A DNA stretch of 64,000 bases from Escherichia coli. Its GTDB lineage: Bacteria > Pseudomonadota > Gammaproteobacteria > Enterobacterales > Enterobacteriaceae. The translations under genes and the position numbers were made by a program. The notes beneath the pieces are model-generated. The model worked only from the letters and a program-made list of their open reading frames with translations. It was not told the origin of the DNA and did not search any database. The DNA is taken from assembly GCF_045037415.1 (NCBI RefSeq), contig NZ_CP173438.1; one strand, 5' to 3'. Below are positions 2,897 through 43,097 of this stretch, in pieces. Within the stretch, counting starts at the first letter, position 1, and each line of letters opens with the position of its first letter.

Positions 2897-3096
2897 TCCT
2901 GATTTAATGTCGCGAGTTCGCCAAATCGGCCTGGATTAATCTTCGTCCAGGTTCGAGGGCCTTCTTAATACTGCCTATCTACCCGCCTGATAACGTTCAA
3001 AAATAATACAAATCGCAGTTTGTGTTAAAACAGTGGGTTAGCTTTATGAGATTATCCTTATCGCCCCTTCAAGAGCTAAGCCACTGTGAGTGCCGG

Positions 3097-3163
3097 AGAT
3101 AAGCGCCGGATGGGGTAGAAACCCTTAAGCCTGTGTCGCACAGACTTAAGGGTTTTCTTATTT
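3097..3163 (+). ncRNA. rydB: candidate small RNA RydB (coordinates approximate)
   Basis: K-12 encodes the ~68-nt sRNA RydB between ydiH and sufA; a strong intrinsic terminator hairpin ends here at ~3164. The 5' end is not determined from sequence. Confidence 0.4.
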
Positions 3164-20824: not shown

Positions 20825-21130
20825 TCAGGCAAGTTTTGCCTGATTGATTTGACTCAGTGGCACATTGACATCGAAAACTTTGGCGACAACTTCCTCAACG
20901 CCGAGATTTTTCAGTCGGGCAGTATGTTTTTCCAGATAGGCAAGGGCGCTTTTTTCATCAGTGAAAAGGTAGATCCCACCGGCTTCGTGGTTCTTTTCAC
21001 TTTCTGTCCAAACCTTCCACAGAAAACCAGGTTCCTGATTAATCGACTCAGCAAGCGGTTTAAGCTGCTCAGCCATTGTGTCGCCAAATGGGCCATTGAA
21101 AGAAAAATGAAGTTGTAACAAAGTTGCCAT
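20825..21130 (-). CDS. ydhR: putative monooxygenase YdhR (dimeric alpha/beta barrel)
   Basis: 101 aa matching recalled YdhR. Confidence 0.88.
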
Positions 21131-21238
21131 AGCGATTCTCCTTCTGATAACGCATACGAAGACAGTGTAAATCTTTTAACGTATTGGATACAGAGAAGAA
21201 ACAGAGGGAAAAAAGGAGAAGACCAGATTAAGAAAATC

Positions 21239-21315
21239 TGGTGCGTCCGAGTGGACTCGAACCACCGACCCCCACCATGTCAAGGTGGTGCTCTAACCAA
21301 CTGAGCTACGGACGC
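21239..21315 (-). tRNA. valV: tRNA-Val (anticodon GAC)
   Basis: Reverse complement reads GCGTCCGTAGCTCAGTTGGTTAGAGCACCACCTTGACATGGTGGGGGTCGGTGGTTCGAGTCCACTCGGACGCACCA; cloverleaf with encoded CCA. Confidence 0.95.
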
Positions 21316-21319
21316 AGGA

Positions 21320-21396
21320 TGGTGCGTTCAATTGGACTCGAACCAACGACCCCCACCATGTCAAGGTGGTGCTCTAACCAACTGAGCTATGAACGC
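21320..21396 (-). tRNA. valW: tRNA-Val (anticodon GAC), second copy
   Basis: Reverse complement reads GCGTTCATAGCTCAGTTGGTTAGAGCACCACCTTGACATGG...CCAATTGAACGCACCA; 4-nt spacer from the first copy. Confidence 0.95.
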
Positions 21397-38785: not shown

Positions 38786-39307
38786 ATGAAACGTTTTAGT
38801 CTGGCCATTCTGGCGCTGGTTGTTGCGACCGGCGCACAAGCTGCCAGTGAAAAAGTCGAGATGAACCTCGTCACGTCGCAAGGGGTTGGGCAGTCAATTG
38901 GTAGCGTCACCATTACTGAAACCGATAAAGGTCTGGAGTTTTCGCCCGATCTGAAAGCATTACCTCCCGGTGAACATGGCTTCCATATTCATGCCAAAGG
39001 AAGCTGCCAGCCAGCCACCAAAGATGGCAAAGCCAGCGCCGCAGAATCCGCAGGCGGGCATCTTGATCCACAAAATACCGGTAAACATGAAGGGCCAGAA
39101 GGTGCCGGGCATTTAGGCGATCTGCCTGCACTGGTAGTCAATAATGACGGCAAGGCGACCGATGCCGTCATCGCGCCTCGTCTGAAATCACTGGATGAAG
39201 TCAAAGACAAAGCGCTGATAGTCCACGTTGGCGGCGATAATATGTCCGATCAACCCAAACCGCTGGGCGGTGGCGGTGAACGCTATGCCTGTGGTGTAAT
39301 TAAGTAA
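38786..39307 (+). CDS. sodC: periplasmic Cu/Zn superoxide dismutase
   Basis: 173 aa from ATG at 38786 (MKRFSLAILALVVATGAQA signal peptide); His-rich Cu/Zn ligand motifs. Confidence 0.95.
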   Translation: MKRFSLAILALVVATGAQAASEKVEMNLVTSQGVGQSIGSVTITETDKGLEFSPDLKALPPGEHGFHIHAKGSCQPATKDGKASAAESAGGHLDPQNTGKHEGPEGAGHLGDLPALVVNNDGKATDAVIAPRLKSLDEVKDKALIVHVGGDNMSDQPKPLGGGGERYACGVIK

Positions 39308-41320
39308 TTAAGAGGCCAGCGTACCTTGCGGCGGTGCTTGCTCAAGTTGCGAAAGCGAGCAGTACAGCCGCCAGACAATTGCCGCCAGTTCTCGGGCGGC
39401 AGGTTGATGATGACGGGCAAGGCTGTCGCAAATCCGCTGTAATTCTTCAAGTGTGGCCGCCAGTGATTTTTGCTGAACGCCACGCTCACTCATCACTCCC
39501 CGCAACAGTGAAATACAGTTATCCCGTACTCGCGATAACGGATCGGAACGCGATTCCCAGTCGCGCAATTGCCAGACAACATGAGAACAGTTCAGCAACA
39601 CTACACCCCAGCGTAATAACCAACGGCGAGCCAGCGCATCCTGGCTGTTACTCAACTGACTGACGTGATGATAAGTGAGCGATTCAAATTCGCTTTCACT
39701 CAGTGTTGGATGGCGGCTTAGTTGATCGACAAAATCCCGGCGCAGCGCGCGAATATGGCGGCGGCTTTTACGAGCATCCGATCCTGGACGCAGAATGGCG
39801 AACGCTAACCACGCCAACGCGACGCCAACAATTTTTGCCAGATTATCGTTAAGAAAATCAGCAAAATCATACACCGGGGGATTAGTGACAGCGATAAACG
39901 AACCCATAAAAACAATCAGTTGCCCCCACAGTGCGGCAAATTTGGGCATCTGCAATTTAAGAAGCTGCATTGTCGCCAGCAGTGGAAAGAGAAACAGTAA
40001 AAATTGCCACAGATCGCTAATCTGCACCATCAGGCCAAATTTGACCACAAAGCTGAATAGCGAAAGTAACACCAGCGTGCGCATCAGCAGTGACAAAGAC
40101 TTAAACGGTGCTGCGACGGCGGAGTAGAGTACGCAGCTAATTGCTGCCAGCGTTAAAGCATTGGCACCGGCATCCCATTGCGAAGCAATACTCCATGCGC
40201 CAATCATCATCAACGTACAAAATGTACGCAGCCCGCTCCACATAGCTTCGGCGTTATCGGTATGACGAGCCAGGCCGGATGTCCGTGGGAGTCTGGCATG
40301 ATCATCTACACCGCTTTGTAGACGATGTAATTCCTGACTACTTTGCAGATAAAGGCGGCAAAAATAACGTAGTCGCTGCCAGAAGGCGATGTGCCGGTAG
40401 TCGGTGACGTTGGTCGGGCGTAGTGGGGAGATAATACGTGCGACGGTGTAAACATCTGTTTGCGAACTGGCGAGCGCCGTCAGCAGCTGTTCGAGAATTT
40501 CTCGCGTGGCATCTGGCGGTGAGGGCCAGTTGAGCAACATACGTCGCAGGCTGGAGATGACACTGGTCATACGTAATTGCTGGTGGAGCAGCGCATTAAG
40601 GCGTGCGTTTTGCTGGCGAAAACGATAGTGGCTCCAGAAAGCCTGGATACGCAGCAAATTCATGGTCAGTATCTGCCCAATCACCCCTTCATGTGCTGCA
40701 CGAATGGCATCGGTTGTTTCAGGCCGCCAGAGTAAACTGGCATGTTCCAGTAATCGGGCGTGCATGTTTTTCAATGCGGTTAAAAGGGCTGTAGCATCGG
40801 AACTGCTCGGCAGGATCATCATCATCATGCCGCCGCACAAAATACCGACTATCACCTCGCAAACACGCGCCTGAGCGATATCCCACAGCTGGCTGGCCTC
40901 AGTAATATTAACCATCGGAAAGGCGATGATGGCAGCCGTGTAGCCCGCCAGTTGAAATGCATACGCGACGTTATTCGTGAAGTGCGCACAGGCCCAGGTA
41001 CAAAAGCCAAGCCACGCCGACATGCTCAATAGAAAAAACCACGGCTCATTGAGCGTATGTCCGGCAAGAAGCAGTGCTGCAATGGCTCCGAGCAAACTGC
41101 CAGCGATGCGTCCGAGGCTTTTGCTGATGACACCGCCAACGGTGGGAAAGCTAACCACCGCAGCCGAGGTCATCGCCCAATAGGGTTCATCCAGATTCAA
41201 ATAATAGGCAACCGTCAGCGCCAGACACATGGCAATGGTATTGCGTAACGCATAACGCCATTGCGCCAGCGTGGCCCTGAACCAGGGCAAATTGCGCAAG
41301 GACCATGACGATGCGTTCAT
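39308..41320 (-). CDS. ydhK: FUSC-family (AaeB-like) putative efflux membrane protein YdhK
   Basis: 670 aa with two hydrophobic clusters. Confidence 0.9.
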
Positions 41321-42177
41321 TATTGACCTACGGCAATGCTACAGGTGGTGCCCGACACCAGCGTGACATCGCCTGGGACTTTATCCAGCGTAAAGCGGAC
41401 GGGAACGCGTTGGGCGAGGCGAACCCAGGGGACGTTAGGTTTCACATCCGGAATAAGGCTTGAGTCACTTTCAACGCTCTGATCATAAATCGCCCGACCG
41501 ATACTGGACACGTGACCCTGTAACGTTTTGTTATCACTATAGAGGGTAATTTGTGCTGGTGCACCTTCGCGGATATGGCGCAACTTGGTTTCTTCAAAAT
41601 AACCAATGACGTAAAACGAGTGGCTGTCAACAAGGGCAAACAGCGGTTTCCCGGTGTCAGCGTAGTCGCCGATGCGGGTAGTGAGATTAGTCACCCATCC
41701 ACTCACCGGGGCGCGAATTTCCGTTTGCGCCAGTTGCCATTGTGCCTGTTTCAGCGTCGCCTGTGCGGCATCAACGCTGGCCTGCATCGCTTTAACATTG
41801 AGGTTAGCGGTATCGAGTTCTTCGGCAGAAATAAAATTTTGTGAGAGATGACGACGACGATTCGCTTCGTTATTGGCTTTTGCGAGGTCAGATTGCGCTT
41901 TCGCCAGCTGAGCCTGTGCGTTCAGCTCGGCGATCTGAAAGGGCGTTTTATCGATCGTGAGCAGAAGATCCCCCGCGTTAACCAGCTGGTTGTCTTTTAT
42001 ATTCAGCTCAACAATACGTCCCGACACCTGTGGGGTGATAGAAACCTGTTCTGCGCGTATTTTCCCGTCGCGTGTCCACGGAGATTGCATGTAATAATTC
42101 CACAGCCACCATCCGGCAAGAACCGCAACTACCGCTACAATGATTGTTGAGAAATACTTAATTGTTTTAATTGACAT
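41320..42177 (-). CDS. ydhJ: HlyD/AaeA-like membrane fusion protein YdhJ
   Basis: 285 aa from ATG at 42177; single N-terminal TM, coiled-coil and beta-barrel region. Confidence 0.9.
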
Positions 42178-42179
42178 AG

Positions 42180-42416
42180 TTACCACGCAATCAGTATTGC
42201 CAGAGCAAGGCAAACGCAAATCGCAAACAGCGATAAATCCATTAACAAGGGATGCCAGATGTCACCAGCGTAGATCCAGCCACGAAGCAGGCGGTGTATG
42301 ACAAGCCAGATGACGAATCCAAACGCGAAGGCTTTGAAAAACGGAGGAAAGTAGACGGACGCACCGAACACCAGATCTTGTAAGGGCAATCCTGTTGCAT
42401 TGAGCATAAACTTCAC
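42180..42416 (-). CDS. ydhI: DUF1656 small inner-membrane protein YdhI
   Basis: 78 aa, two TM helices; stop abuts the ydhJ start. Confidence 0.88.
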
Positions 42417-42610
42417 AAAGTAGATTCCTTTACGACAGAATATATTGCGTTAGATTAATAAATATTCTTTAAGTGCGAAAAATTTACGCGCAATTTCTGA
42501 AAAATATGTCTGACGGTAACCAAATGCAGCAATACATTTGTTTTAGCAATACAATTGCTGCACACTATTCTAAAAGCCGCATAATATCTTAGCAAGCTAA
42601 TTATAAGGAG

Positions 42611-43051
42611 ATGAAATTGGAATCGCCACTAGGTTCTGATCTGGCACGGTTGGTGCGCATATGGCGTGCTCTGATAGACCATCGCCTGAAACCGCTGGAG
42701 TTAACACAAACCCATTGGGTTACGTTACACAATATCCATCAGTTACCTCCAGACCAGTCGCAAATTCAACTGGCAAAAGCGATTGGCATCGAGCAGCCAT
42801 CACTGGTCCGTACGCTGGACCAACTGGAAGAAAAAGGGTTAATTTCGCGTCAAACTTGTGCCAGCGATCGTCGGGCTAAACGTATTAAACTGACGGAAAA
42901 GGCAGAGCCACTGATCAGCGAAATGGAGGCTGTTATTAACAAAACCCGCGCGGAAATTTTACATGGCATCTCCGCAGAGGAACTGGAACAACTGATTAAG
43001 CTCATCGCAAAACTTGAGCATAATATCATTGAGTTACAGGCCAAAGGGTGA
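42611..43051 (+). CDS. slyA: MarR-family transcriptional regulator SlyA
   Basis: [26 protein letters not shown]...; winged-helix MarR fold (true start may be 2 codons downstream). Confidence 0.95.
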
Positions 43052-43097
43052 AATGAAGGGGGCGTGTGGTCAGTAACCTGACCACACGCAAACTTAT

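What the first reader, a model, noticed from the sequence alone, without database searches (positions are those of the whole stretch)
39308..43051. ydhIJK tripartite efflux-like cluster divergent from slyA
ydhI (DUF1656 small membrane protein), ydhJ (HlyD/AaeA-like membrane fusion protein) and ydhK (FUSC/AaeB-like, 670 aa) are arranged with abutting or overlapping start and stop codons (ydhI stop at 42180, ydhJ start at 42177; ydhJ stop and ydhK start share 41320), indicating translational coupling. They are divergently placed from the MarR-type regulator slyA. The layout mirrors the aaeXAB aromatic-acid efflux system, but the substrate is not defined.
Basis: partly seen in the sequence, partly recalled or inferred. 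Interest (0 to 1): 0.3.

Follow-up and report, generated by a model that had tools for sequence, protein, structure and literature searches.

The report
Known ydhIJK efflux operon beside slyA
This is the already described E. coli ydhIJK operon, a SlyA-controlled exporter of aromatic acids related to AaeXAB; it is ordinary, and only its natural substrate and energy coupling remain unknown.

Summary
On the minus strand lie ydhI (42180-42416, GTG start, DUF1656), ydhJ (41320-42177, periplasmic adaptor) and ydhK (39308-41320, FUSC family). A 2-nt gap separates ydhI from ydhJ, and ydhJ and ydhK share a TAATG overlap. slyA is divergent. The DNA is 100% identical to E. coli SK1144, and the segment occurs in 5425 of 5426 complete E. 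coli genomes.

In 80 Enterobacteriaceae species the three genes are always together. Junctions never exceed 10 nt, and slyA is divergent in 79 of 80. Only ydhI has a consistent Shine-Dalgarno sequence.

Published work already shows SlyA binding to this intergenic DNA, about 19-fold in vitro repression of ydhI relieved by salicylate, a fusaric-acid phenotype in Salmonella, large YdhJ induction in Klebsiella kvrA mutants, and sigma-E regulon membership.

Two corrections apply:
- The cluster is a paralogue of AaeXAB, not an orthologue, because it fails all three NCBIfam equivalog cut-offs.
- It encodes no outer-membrane channel, so it is not shown to be "tripartite" in the usual sense.

A confident YdhK model matches only plant ALMT anion channels and keeps both of their pore arginines.

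Novelty: already known. Interest: low.

The parts
39308..41320 (-). ydhK: inner-membrane FUSC/ArAE-family transporter, 670 aa, built from two homologous ALMT-like modules
   Evidence: ORF. Pfam FUSC PF04632 scores 469.5 bits. RefSeq calls it 'FUSC family protein'. The AlphaFold2 model has pLDDT 93.1. The only confident fold matches are ALMT1/ALMT9/ALMT12. Internal duplication has hhalign probability 95%. R71 and R152 align with the ALMT1 pore arginines R80 and R165.
41320..42177 (-). ydhJ: membrane-anchored periplasmic adaptor (membrane fusion protein), 285 aa
   Evidence: Pfam HlyD_3, HlyD_D23 and Biotin_lipoyl_2 match. TIGR01730 scores 135.2 against a cut-off of 94.9. PDB relatives by sequence are TriAB, EmrA, AcrA and MacA. 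The model shows a TM helix at 3-30 and a hairpin at 78-109/118-150.
42180..42416 (-). ydhI: DUF1656 small membrane protein, 78 aa, two hydrophobic segments, conserved GTG start
   Evidence: Pfam PF07869 scores 53.4 bits. Hydropathy gives segments 22-40 and 58-76. The FPP-F and WHP-L motifs are invariant and shared with AaeX. The start is GTG in nearly all of the 80 loci.
42175..42182 (-). ydhI-ydhJ junction: TAA, CT, ATG (2-nt gap)
   Evidence: Sequence read. The gap is 2-10 nt in 80/80 species. SD pairing before ydhJ is weak, at -2.8 kcal/mol against -5.6 for ydhI.
41318..41322 (-). ydhJ-ydhK junction: TAATG, stop and start share base 41320
   Evidence: Sequence read. There is an overlap of 1 or 4 nt in 64/80 species and a gap of 0-8 nt in the rest. 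SD pairing is weak, at -3.3 kcal/mol.
42426..42431 (-). Shine-Dalgarno AAAGGA of ydhI
   Evidence: At least 90% conserved in the 80-species intergenic alignment. Median pairing energy is -5.4 kcal/mol.
42417..42616 (.). slyA-ydhI intergenic control region (200 bp to the RefSeq slyA TTG)
   Evidence: The slyA-proximal ~90 bp is at least 90% conserved and the ydhI-proximal ~100 bp is variable. It differs from K-12 at one base, 42437. SlyA binds this fragment in EMSA (PMC5797941).
42589..42600 (+). perfect SlyA consensus palindrome TTAGCAAGCTAA
   Evidence: It is the only 0-mismatch match in the 64-kb window. The TTAGCWWGCTAA form is present in 79 of 80 intergenic regions.
42450..42461 (-). 9/12 SlyA-like site TTATTAATCTAA close to the ydhI start
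   Evidence: Found. A match at this stringency is not above chance on its own (40 found against 53 expected in the window). It aligns with the position where PMC6401476 reports a 75%-identity SlyA site near -35 of the Salmonella ydhI TSS. This is an inference.
42567..42595 (-). sigma-70-like promoter match toward ydhI (TTGCTA, 17 nt, TAGAAT); its -35 overlaps the SlyA palindrome
   Evidence: Consensus scan. Matches in the region were not above the shuffle expectation, so this is only a candidate. It lies in the conserved block.
42450..42476 (-). candidate sigma-E-type promoter (GCACTT, 16 nt, TCTAA)
   Evidence: Read by eye against the consensus GGAACTT-N16-TCTGA, which is my own knowledge. 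A sigma-E-dependent PydhIJK is reported in PMC7075262, but its coordinate was not available to me. The -35 is not conserved beyond Escherichia. Unverified.
42617..43051 (+). slyA: MarR-family regulator, divergent from ydhIJK
   Evidence: Pfam MarR scores 61.5 bits. RefSeq annotation. It is divergent from ydhI in 79 of 80 species loci, and the exception is cut by a contig end.

Best explanation
The segment is the E. coli ydhIJK operon with its divergent regulator gene slyA.

Shown here:
- The three genes sit head-to-tail with junctions of at most 2 nt.
- This tightness is kept across the Enterobacteriaceae.
- Only the first gene has a consistent ribosome-binding site.

Inferred: the genes are made from one transcript, and ydhJ and ydhK are translated by ribosomes that have just finished the preceding gene.

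The products are as follows.
- YdhK is an inner-membrane FUSC/ArAE-family protein. It is made of two homologous halves, each folded like one subunit of a plant ALMT organic-anion channel. Its N-terminal half keeps the two pore arginines, R71 and R152.
- YdhJ is a membrane-anchored periplasmic adaptor with a short alpha-hairpin.
- YdhI is a two-helix DUF1656 accessory membrane protein.

From the literature: together they export aromatic carboxylates. Fusaric acid is shown in Salmonella; the natural substrate is unknown.

Control works as follows. SlyA binds the intergenic DNA, which carries a perfect operator palindrome at 42589-42600. It represses ydhI in Salmonella and Klebsiella. Aromatic carboxylates such as salicylate release SlyA. 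Sigma-E envelope stress also raises the transcript in E. coli.

My inference on energetics: YdhK moves the carboxylate anion down the membrane potential through an ALMT-like pore, rather than working like an MFS, RND or ABC pump. Whether YdhJ connects it to TolC is not known.
For: Anatomy and identity:
- Pfam gives DUF1656, HlyD-type, FUSC (E = 2.8e-140) and MarR.
- The DNA is 100% identical to E. coli SK1144, and a match occurs in 5425/5426 complete genomes.
- The window differs from K-12 by only 52 of 3111 nt and one intergenic base.

Operon and coupling:
- ydhI, ydhJ and ydhK are together in 80/80 species loci.
- Junction gaps are at most 10 nt in all, and 64/80 ydhJ-ydhK junctions overlap.
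- Median SD pairing is -5.4 kcal/mol for ydhI, -2.8 for ydhJ and -3.0 for ydhK, against a background of -1.9.
- Promoter-like and terminator-like matches in the region do not exceed shuffle expectations.

Transporter fold:
- The YdhK model has pLDDT 93.1 and pTM 0.91.
- Foldseek probability-1.00 hits are only ALMT1 and ALMT9.
- The FUSC profile hits ALMT9, ALMT12 and ALMT1 at E = 6.6e-6 to 5.9e-5. YdhK R71 and R152 align with ALMT1 R80 and R165.
- R152 is invariant and R71 nearly invariant in 90 diverse homologues.
- The N and C halves are homologous.

Adaptor.

Regulation:
- The perfect SlyA box is unique in the window and conserved in 79/80 loci.
- EMSA binding in E. coli is in PMC5797941.
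- Repression of about 19-fold in vitro, salicylate relief and the fusaric acid phenotype are in PMC6401476.
- Repression in Salmonella RNA-seq, and the statement that the substrate is unknown, are in PMC12506092.
- YdhJ rises 45-fold and more than 100-fold in K. pneumoniae kvrA mutants (bioRxiv 10.1101/845925).
- The sigma-E TSS and a 20-fold RNA rise are in PMC7075262, and ydhK is treated as a sigma-E regulon gene in PMC2685091.
Against: - In E. coli K-12, SlyA overproduction raised ydhIJK 2.2-fold (PMC5797941). This is the opposite sign to Salmonella and Klebsiella.
- No efflux phenotype has been reported for E. coli itself in the papers I could read, and a 2024 transporter survey still lists ydhK as uncharacterised (PMC10971958).
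- Co-transcription and translational coupling are inferred from geometry and conservation, not measured here.
- The channel-like energetics rest on a predicted structure and on homology to plant channels. TCDB files the family as secondary carriers (2.A.85, cited in PMC10971958).
- No outer-membrane partner is encoded, and the YdhJ hairpin is short (two helices of about 32 residues). A trans-envelope conduit is therefore not demonstrated.
- The YdhJ model is only moderate (pLDDT 70).
- My sigma-E promoter candidate is not conserved outside Escherichia.
Confidence: 0.85

Rival explanations
1. ydhIJK is simply a second copy (functional orthologue) of the AaeXAB p-hydroxybenzoate 'relief valve', with the same substrates.
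For: The gene order is the same: DUF1656, adaptor, FUSC transporter. All three pairs show significant similarity, with YdhJ/AaeA at E = 5e-68, YdhK/AaeB at E = 4e-28 and YdhI/AaeX at E = 2e-5. Both relate to aromatic carboxylates (PMC12506092).
Against: Scores of 21.1, 243.7 and 120.8 bits fall far below the AaeX, AaeA and AaeB equivalog cut-offs of 82, 400 and 870. The K-12 AaeXAB proteins pass them. YdhK and AaeB are only 23% identical. The regulators differ (LysR AaeR against MarR SlyA), as does the extra sigma-E input. Both systems coexist in E. coli.
Confidence: 0.1
2. YdhK is a proton-coupled secondary antiporter, as the transporter classification of the family implies. The ALMT resemblance reflects shared ancestry only, not a channel-like mechanism.
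For: TCDB places YdhK in 2.A.85, the secondary carriers (quoted in PMC10971958). Partnership with a periplasmic adaptor is otherwise known for energised pumps (PMC8277102).
Against: The only structural relatives are anion channels. Both ALMT pore arginines are conserved. A mycobacterial FUSC-domain protein has been interpreted as an ALMT-like channel exporting alpha-ketoglutarate (bioRxiv 10.64898/2026.03.10.710584). None of this measures coupling.
Confidence: 0.4
3. The system's main role is envelope or metabolic homeostasis. It would export an endogenous metabolite under sigma-E stress, and xenobiotic resistance would be incidental.
For: A sigma-E-dependent promoter and a 20-fold RNA increase on sigma-E induction are reported (PMC7075262). 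ydhK overexpression is toxic (PMC2685091). The authors of PMC12506092 favour an unidentified endogenous substrate. ydhK transposon mutants appear in a UPEC bloodstream fitness screen (PMC3855560). The cluster is present in 5425/5426 E. coli genomes.
Against: No endogenous substrate has been identified. The only phenotype so far is with exogenous fusaric acid (PMC6401476).
Confidence: 0.4
4. YdhIJK acts only across the inner membrane and is not a trans-envelope tripartite pump.
For: There is no outer-membrane factor gene in the cluster or its flanks in 80 species. YdhK has no predicted periplasmic domain. The YdhJ hairpin is short and there is no membrane-proximal domain. A review lists the partner of the paralogue as 'AaeAB-?' (PMC8277102).
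Against: Adaptor proteins normally serve to engage an outer-membrane channel. Relatives such as mdtNOP and Burkholderia bucl8-fusCDE do encode one (PMC7682875). TolC is encoded elsewhere in E. coli and serves many pumps.
Confidence: 0.3
5. In E. coli, unlike Salmonella and Klebsiella, SlyA activates ydhIJK, for instance by displacing H-NS from the AT-rich variable half of the intergenic region.
For: ydhIJK rose 2.2-fold on SlyA overproduction in K-12, and SlyA binds directly in EMSA (PMC5797941). The ydhI-proximal ~100 bp is AT-rich and diverged between genera.
Against: The operator palindrome and the whole slyA-proximal block are nearly identical between E. coli, Salmonella and Klebsiella. 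Repression is strong in the other two genera. The E. coli effect is small and comes from an overproduction experiment.
Confidence: 0.2

Closest known systems
E. coli / Salmonella ydhIJK operon with slyA (literature: PMC6401476, PMC5797941, PMC12506092)
   Same: It is this locus. The window is 100% identical to E. coli SK1144 and 98.3% identical to K-12 over 3.1 kb, with one intergenic difference. Genes, order, junctions and regulator are the same.
   Different: Nothing structural differs. Amino-acid differences from K-12 are YdhI I40V, YdhJ T263A and one SlyA substitution.
AaeXAB (yhcRQP) aromatic carboxylic acid efflux system with AaeR
   Same: The three-gene layout is the same: DUF1656 protein, membrane-anchored adaptor, FUSC/ArAE transporter. 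A divergent regulator and short intergenic junctions are also shared (aaeXAB gaps are 7 and 5 nt).
   Different: It is a paralogue. Identities are 41%, 23% and 31%, and all three proteins are below the NCBIfam equivalog cut-offs. Its regulator is LysR-type AaeR rather than MarR-type SlyA. ydhIJK has reported sigma-E input. Substrates are only partly defined.
ytcA-mdtNOP (sdsRQP) of E. coli and Burkholderia fusR-bucl8-fusCDE / Stenotrophomonas fuaABC fusaric acid pumps
   Same: Each has a FUSC-family inner-membrane protein with an HlyD-type adaptor. mdtN-mdtO also has a TAATG junction. Burkholderia FusD is a small extra polypeptide that leads its authors to call the pump 'tetrapartite', and that pump gives fusaric acid resistance (PMC7682875).
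   Different: Those clusters encode their own outer-membrane factor (MdtP, Bucl8), and ydhIJK does not. YdhK/MdtO similarity is weak (22% over 169 aa). YtcA shows no similarity to YdhI.
Plant ALMT/QUAC organic-anion channels (AtALMT1, AtALMT9, GmALMT12) and mycobacterial Rv2571c
   Different: ALMTs and Rv2571c are homodimers of half-size subunits. YdhK is a single chain with two diverged modules and works with an adaptor and a DUF1656 protein. No Pfam ALMT domain hit was listed for YdhK. Channel activity is untested.

Membership tests
AaeXAB p-hydroxybenzoic acid efflux system (NCBIfam equivalogs NF008615, NF007850, NF007916) | Each protein reaches the curated equivalog score (AaeX 82, AaeA 400, AaeB 870 bits) | tested here: not met
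   YdhI scores 21.1, YdhJ 243.7 and YdhK 120.8 bits. The K-12 AaeX, AaeA and AaeB controls score 133, 608.6 and 1219.2.
AaeXAB p-hydroxybenzoic acid efflux system | Gene order: small DUF1656 protein, adaptor, FUSC transporter, with a divergent regulator | tested here: met
   The regulator family differs, however: MarR-type SlyA here and LysR-type AaeR there.
AaeXAB p-hydroxybenzoic acid efflux system | Efflux of p-hydroxybenzoate and related aromatic carboxylates | not testable with these tools
   The only available evidence is literature: fusaric acid in Salmonella (PMC6401476).
FUSC / ArAE transporter family (Pfam PF04632; TC 2.A.85) | Full-length match above the Pfam gathering score | tested here: met
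   469.5 bits against a cut-off of 30.9, covering residues 20-661.
FUSC / ArAE transporter family | Two homologous membrane modules, each followed by a cytoplasmic helical domain | tested here: met
   hhalign of the N half against the C half gives probability 95% and E = 3.4e-8. The helix pattern of the model fits, and the cytoplasmic parts match the COG4129 domain and PhoU-like bundles.
Periplasmic adaptor / membrane fusion proteins (TIGR01730, Pfam HlyD_3, HlyD_D23) | Family score above the cut-off, plus an N-terminal anchor, lipoyl domain, alpha-hairpin and beta-barrel | tested here: met
   TIGR01730 scores 135.2 against 94.9. Pfam hits are, the single TM segment at 8-26, and the hairpin at 78-109/118-150. 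Barrel regions of the model have low confidence.
DUF1656 (Pfam PF07869) | Match above the gathering score in a small two-helix membrane protein | tested here: met
   53.4 bits against 26.5. Two hydrophobic segments are seen, and the FPP-F and WHP-L motifs are shared with AaeX.
Canonical tripartite efflux pump (inner-membrane transporter + adaptor + outer-membrane factor) | An outer-membrane factor that is encoded in the cluster or shown to be recruited | tested here: not met
   No such gene lies in the cluster or within 4 kb in the window or in 80 related loci. The neighbours are sodC, slyA and slyB. Recruitment of TolC cannot be tested here.
MarR-type repressor with divergent efflux operon | A MarR-domain regulator, divergent orientation, and an operator in the shared intergenic region | tested here: met
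   MarR scores 61.5 bits. slyA is divergent in 79/80 loci. A perfect palindrome lies at 42589-42600 and is conserved in 79/80 loci.
MarR-type repressor with divergent efflux operon | Ligand-relieved repression of the pump operon | not testable with these tools
   This is shown for Salmonella in vitro (PMC6401476) and implied in Klebsiella (bioRxiv 10.1101/845925). E. coli data have the opposite sign (PMC5797941).
ALMT anion channels | ALMT fold with the conserved TM3 and TM6 pore arginines | tested here: met
ALMT anion channels | Membership of the ALMT sequence family, and channel-type conductance | tested here: inconclusive
   No Pfam ALMT hit was listed at E <= 0.01. Only profile-level homology is seen, at E = 6.6e-6. 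Conductance is not testable here.

The most novel reading that the evidence does not exclude
YdhK, and by extension AaeB, MdtO and FusC, would be a single-chain pseudo-dimeric ALMT-type anion conduit. It would expel carboxylate anions down the membrane potential through a pore lined by R71 and R152. Adaptor-linked 'PET' pumps would then form an exporter class that is mechanistically distinct from the RND, ABC and MFS tripartite systems. YdhI (DUF1656) would be an obligatory gating or assembly subunit.
Probability: 0.3. Interest if true: 0.5.

Novelty: already known. Interest (0 to 1): 0.15.

Why it matters
The locus is a textbook-style pairing of a MarR regulator with a divergent efflux operon. 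It is already used as the ancestral reference point for how SlyA/RovA evolved into virulence counter-silencers.

What is still open is the natural substrate of YdhIJK, whether it needs TolC, what the DUF1656 subunit does, and how FUSC-family transporters are energised. The fold and arginine evidence gathered here makes the last question directly testable. None of this changes the verdict that the finding is a correct re-identification of a known, annotated operon.

Tried and rejected
- **Sigma-E promoter coordinate.** I looked for the published position in Rhodius et al. 2006 (PMC1312014) and in the tagRNA-seq paper. The main text of the first does not mention ydhI, and no supplements are held for either. 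My GCACTT-N16-TCTAA candidate therefore stays unverified, and it is not conserved beyond Escherichia.
- **Consensus promoter and terminator scan.** It gave 3 and 5 matches against 5.6 and 6.0 expected. It neither supports nor excludes internal signals.
- **Degenerate SlyA-box search.** At 3 mismatches it is below chance, with 40 matches against 53 expected. Only the perfect site is meaningful on sequence grounds.
- **BLASTP of the YdhK N half against the C half.** Nothing significant was found. The duplication appears only at profile level.
- **Single-sequence PDB search of YdhK.** It gave only a marginal ALMT12 hit at E = 0.41. The profile search was needed.
- **YdhI.** It has no solved relative.
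- **Rfam.** No RNA family was found in 39-43 kb.
- **AaeAB literature.** The original AaeAB paper is not held, and two further papers were blocked by the paper cap. TolC dependence of the paralogue could not be checked.
- **The search for homologous proteins.** It returned only close orthologues of at least 76% identity. Diverse homologues came from the representative search instead.


Full report
**Observation**

- ydhK is 39308-41320 (670 aa, ATG start).
- ydhJ is 41320-42177 (285 aa from the ATG at 42177).
- ydhI is 42180-42416 (78 aa, GTG start).
- slyA is on the plus strand and ends at 43051.

The ydhI stop TAA (42182-42180) is followed by CT and then the ydhJ ATG. The ydhJ stop and the ydhK start form TAATG and share base 41320.

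Pfam assigns DUF1656 to YdhI. It assigns HlyD_3, HlyD_D23 and Biotin_lipoyl_2 to YdhJ, FUSC (E = 2.8e-140) to YdhK, and MarR to SlyA.

The 3.7-kb segment is 100% identical to E. coli SK1144, and a match occurs in 5425 of 5426 complete E. coli genomes. RefSeq annotates the same four genes with the same boundaries, starting slyA at the TTG at 42617. Against K-12 MG1655 there are 52 differences in 3111 nt and only one in the intergenic region, at 42437. K-12 experiments therefore apply directly.

**Is the tight packing meaningful?**

A scan of one genome per species found 80 related loci, all Enterobacteriaceae.
- ydhI, ydhJ and ydhK are together in 80/80.
- A divergent slyA is present in 79/80; the exception is cut by a contig end.
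- The ydhI-ydhJ gap is 2-10 nt in every locus.
- The ydhJ-ydhK junction is a 4-nt overlap in 25, a 1-nt overlap in 39, and 0 to +8 nt in 16.

Predicted pairing with the 16S rRNA 3' end is consistent only for ydhI. Its median is -5.4 kcal/mol, and its AAAGGA at 42426-42431 is at least 90% conserved. The ydhJ and ydhK starts give -2.8 and -3.0, near the background of -1.9.

This supports one transcript and translational coupling, but as an inference, since no RNA or protein data were generated here. The consensus promoter and terminator scan is uninformative because matches do not exceed shuffle expectations. Rfam finds no RNA family in the region.

**What the proteins are**

*YdhK.* It has no solved close relative by single-sequence search. 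I collected diverse homologues; 3089 proteins score at E <= 1e-3. Aligning 90 of them showed W103, Y120, R152 and G159 to be invariant. The resulting model is confident, with pLDDT 93.1 and pTM 0.91.

Both fold searches return only plant aluminium-activated malate transporters, which are organic-anion channels, as convincing matches.
- Foldseek gives probability 1.00 to ALMT1 and ALMT9 and to nothing else.
- No MFS, RND or ABC transporter matches.

A profile of the 90 sequences also finds ALMT9, ALMT12 and ALMT1 by sequence, at E = 6.6e-6 to 5.9e-5. In that alignment YdhK K67/R71 fall on ALMT1 K76/R80, and the invariant R152 falls on ALMT1 R165. [quoted passage not shown]

The two halves of YdhK are homologous to each other: hhalign probability is 95%, with residues 14-196 aligned to about 354-537. 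One YdhK chain therefore corresponds to an ALMT dimer.

*YdhJ.* It is a typical adaptor.
- It exceeds the TIGR01730 cut-off.
- Its sequence relatives in the PDB are TriAB, EmrA, AcrA and MacA.
- It has one N-terminal hydrophobic segment.
- A moderate model (pLDDT 70) shows a confident hairpin of two helices of about 32 residues.

*YdhI.* It has two hydrophobic segments, no solved relative, and invariant FPP-F and WHP-L motifs shared with AaeX.

**Relation to AaeXAB**

The layout does mirror aaeXAB, and all three pairs are homologous. YdhJ/AaeA are 40.8% identical (E = 5e-68), YdhK/AaeB 23.1% (E = 4e-28) and YdhI/AaeX 31% (E = 2e-5).

The relation is paralogy, not orthology. The three proteins score 243.7, 120.8 and 21.1 bits against equivalog cut-offs of 400, 870 and 82, while the K-12 AaeA, AaeB and AaeX proteins pass. 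The divergent regulator of aaeXAB is LysR-type AaeR, not a MarR protein.

The other E. coli relative, ytcA-mdtNOP, carries its own outer-membrane factor, MdtP. ydhIJK has none in the cluster or its flanks. 'Tripartite' in the usual sense of transporter, adaptor and outer-membrane channel is therefore not shown. A review lists the partner of the paralogue as 'AaeAB-?' (PMC8277102). A Burkholderia relative with a small extra polypeptide, FusD, has been called 'tetrapartite' (PMC7682875).

**Regulation**

The window holds a single perfect SlyA consensus palindrome, TTAGCAAGCTAA, at 42589-42600, just upstream of slyA. It is kept in 79 of 80 species.

The slyA-proximal ~90 bp of the intergenic region is at least 90% conserved across genera, whereas the ydhI-proximal ~100 bp is not. 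This reproduces a statement in PMC6401476.

Two weaker signals are only candidates.
- A 9/12 SlyA-like site lies at 42450-42461. It aligns with the place where that paper reports a 75%-identity SlyA site near -35 of the Salmonella ydhI start. Matches of this quality are not above chance on sequence alone.
- A sigma-70-like match toward ydhI has its -35 inside the palindrome.

- SlyA binds the 200-bp slyA-ydhI fragment in E. coli K-12 (PMC5797941).
- Salmonella SlyA represses ydhI about 19-fold in vitro, and salicylate relieves this. A ydhIJK deletion delays growth in fusaric acid, and a slyA mutant grows better (PMC6401476).
- ydhIJK is among the SlyA-repressed genes in Salmonella RNA-seq (PMC12506092).
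- Disrupting the Klebsiella orthologue kvrA raises YdhJ 45-fold and more than 100-fold (bioRxiv 10.1101/845925).

First, ydhIJK has a reported sigma-E-dependent start site, and its RNA rises about 20-fold on sigma-E induction (PMC7075262). ydhK is treated as a sigma-E regulon gene whose overexpression reduces viability (PMC2685091). Second, in E. coli K-12, SlyA overproduction raised ydhIJK 2.2-fold (PMC5797941). This is the opposite sign to the other genera and remains unresolved.

I could not obtain the published sigma-E start coordinate. My GCACTT-N16-TCTAA candidate at 42476-42450 is unverified and is not conserved outside Escherichia.

**Mechanism, with levels of support**

- *Shown here:* gene content, junction geometry and its conservation, domain families, the ALMT-like fold with both pore arginines, internal duplication, the conserved operator, and the absence of an outer-membrane factor gene.
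- *From the literature:* SlyA binding and repression, salicylate relief, the fusaric acid phenotype, and sigma-E induction.
- *Inferred:* co-transcription, translational coupling, an accessory role for YdhI, membrane-potential-driven anion export through YdhK, and any link to TolC.

The physiological substrate remains unknown, as the most recent paper on the system says (PMC12506092). A 2024 transporter survey still lists ydhK as uncharacterised (PMC10971958).

**Verdict**

The finding is a correct reading of a known, annotated and partly characterised operon, so novelty is 'already known' and interest is low.

The most novel reading the evidence leaves open is that FUSC-type pumps with adaptors are ALMT-like anion conduits rather than classical energised pumps. 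The family-level homology to ALMT is already recognised, and a 2026 preprint draws the same structural conclusion for a mycobacterial FUSC-domain protein. Even this reading would be an extension rather than a discovery.

Noticed in passing
window 39305-39310: The stop codons of the convergent genes sodC (+, ends 39307) and ydhK (-, ends 39308) abut with no spacer. No terminator can therefore sit between them. In 65 of 66 other species the two 3' ends overlap or lie within 14 nt (-25 to +14). A 2025 RNA-seq survey lists ydhK-sodC among E. coli convergent 'excludons' (PMC12288877).
   Followed up: partly
window 42611-42619: slyA has an in-frame ATG at 42611 two codons upstream of the TTG at 42617 that RefSeq uses (144 aa). 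The sequence ATGAAATTG is identical in all 80 species aligned, so conservation cannot tell which start is used.
   Followed up: partly
window 42530-42619 versus 42437-42530: The slyA-proximal ~90 bp of non-coding DNA is at least 90% conserved from Escherichia to Buttiauxella. That is more than the neighbouring ydhI protein, which is 58-91% identical. The ydhI-proximal ~100 bp is almost unalignable between genera.
   Followed up: partly
L044, L064, L077 (YdhJ about 312 aa); L053, L054, L078 (about 298 aa); alignment A2 columns 101-205: The YdhJ alpha-hairpin varies in length between orthologues through insertions on both arms. E. coli has the shortest form and MdtN a much longer one. This could set how far the adaptor reaches across the periplasm.
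   Followed up: no
proteins P0002 (845 aa, E. coli-like) and P0048 (900 aa, Salmonella enterica): These are rare single-member proteins in which YdhJ and YdhK are joined in frame by a deletion across the junction. P0002 joins YdhJ 30-236 to YdhK 33-670, and P0048 joins YdhJ 1-266 to YdhK 10-669. They are probably lesions or assembly artefacts.
   Followed up: partly
L079 (CACSKA010000003.1, labelled Chryseobacterium sp. 18061): This contig carries the full enterobacterial slyB-slyA-ydhIJK-sodC synteny, with YdhK 75% and SlyA 87% identical to E. coli. The assembly is probably mislabelled or contaminated with an Enterobacteriaceae genome.
   Followed up: no
window 43062-43089: A strong 12-bp GC-rich hairpin lies between the convergent genes slyA and slyB. 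It has the form of a shared, bidirectional terminator.
   Followed up: no
window 29989-30379; 3063-3123; 21114-21396: Rfam matches elsewhere in the window are sRNA STnc550, sRNA rydB, and two adjacent tRNA genes overlapped by an HPnc0260 antisense-RNA match.
   Followed up: no
window 42417-42616 (literature comparison): The direction of SlyA control disagrees between studies. There is 2.2-fold activation on SlyA overproduction in E. coli K-12. There is strong repression in Salmonella (in vitro and RNA-seq) and in Klebsiella (proteomics). The operator block is nearly identical in all three.
   Followed up: partly
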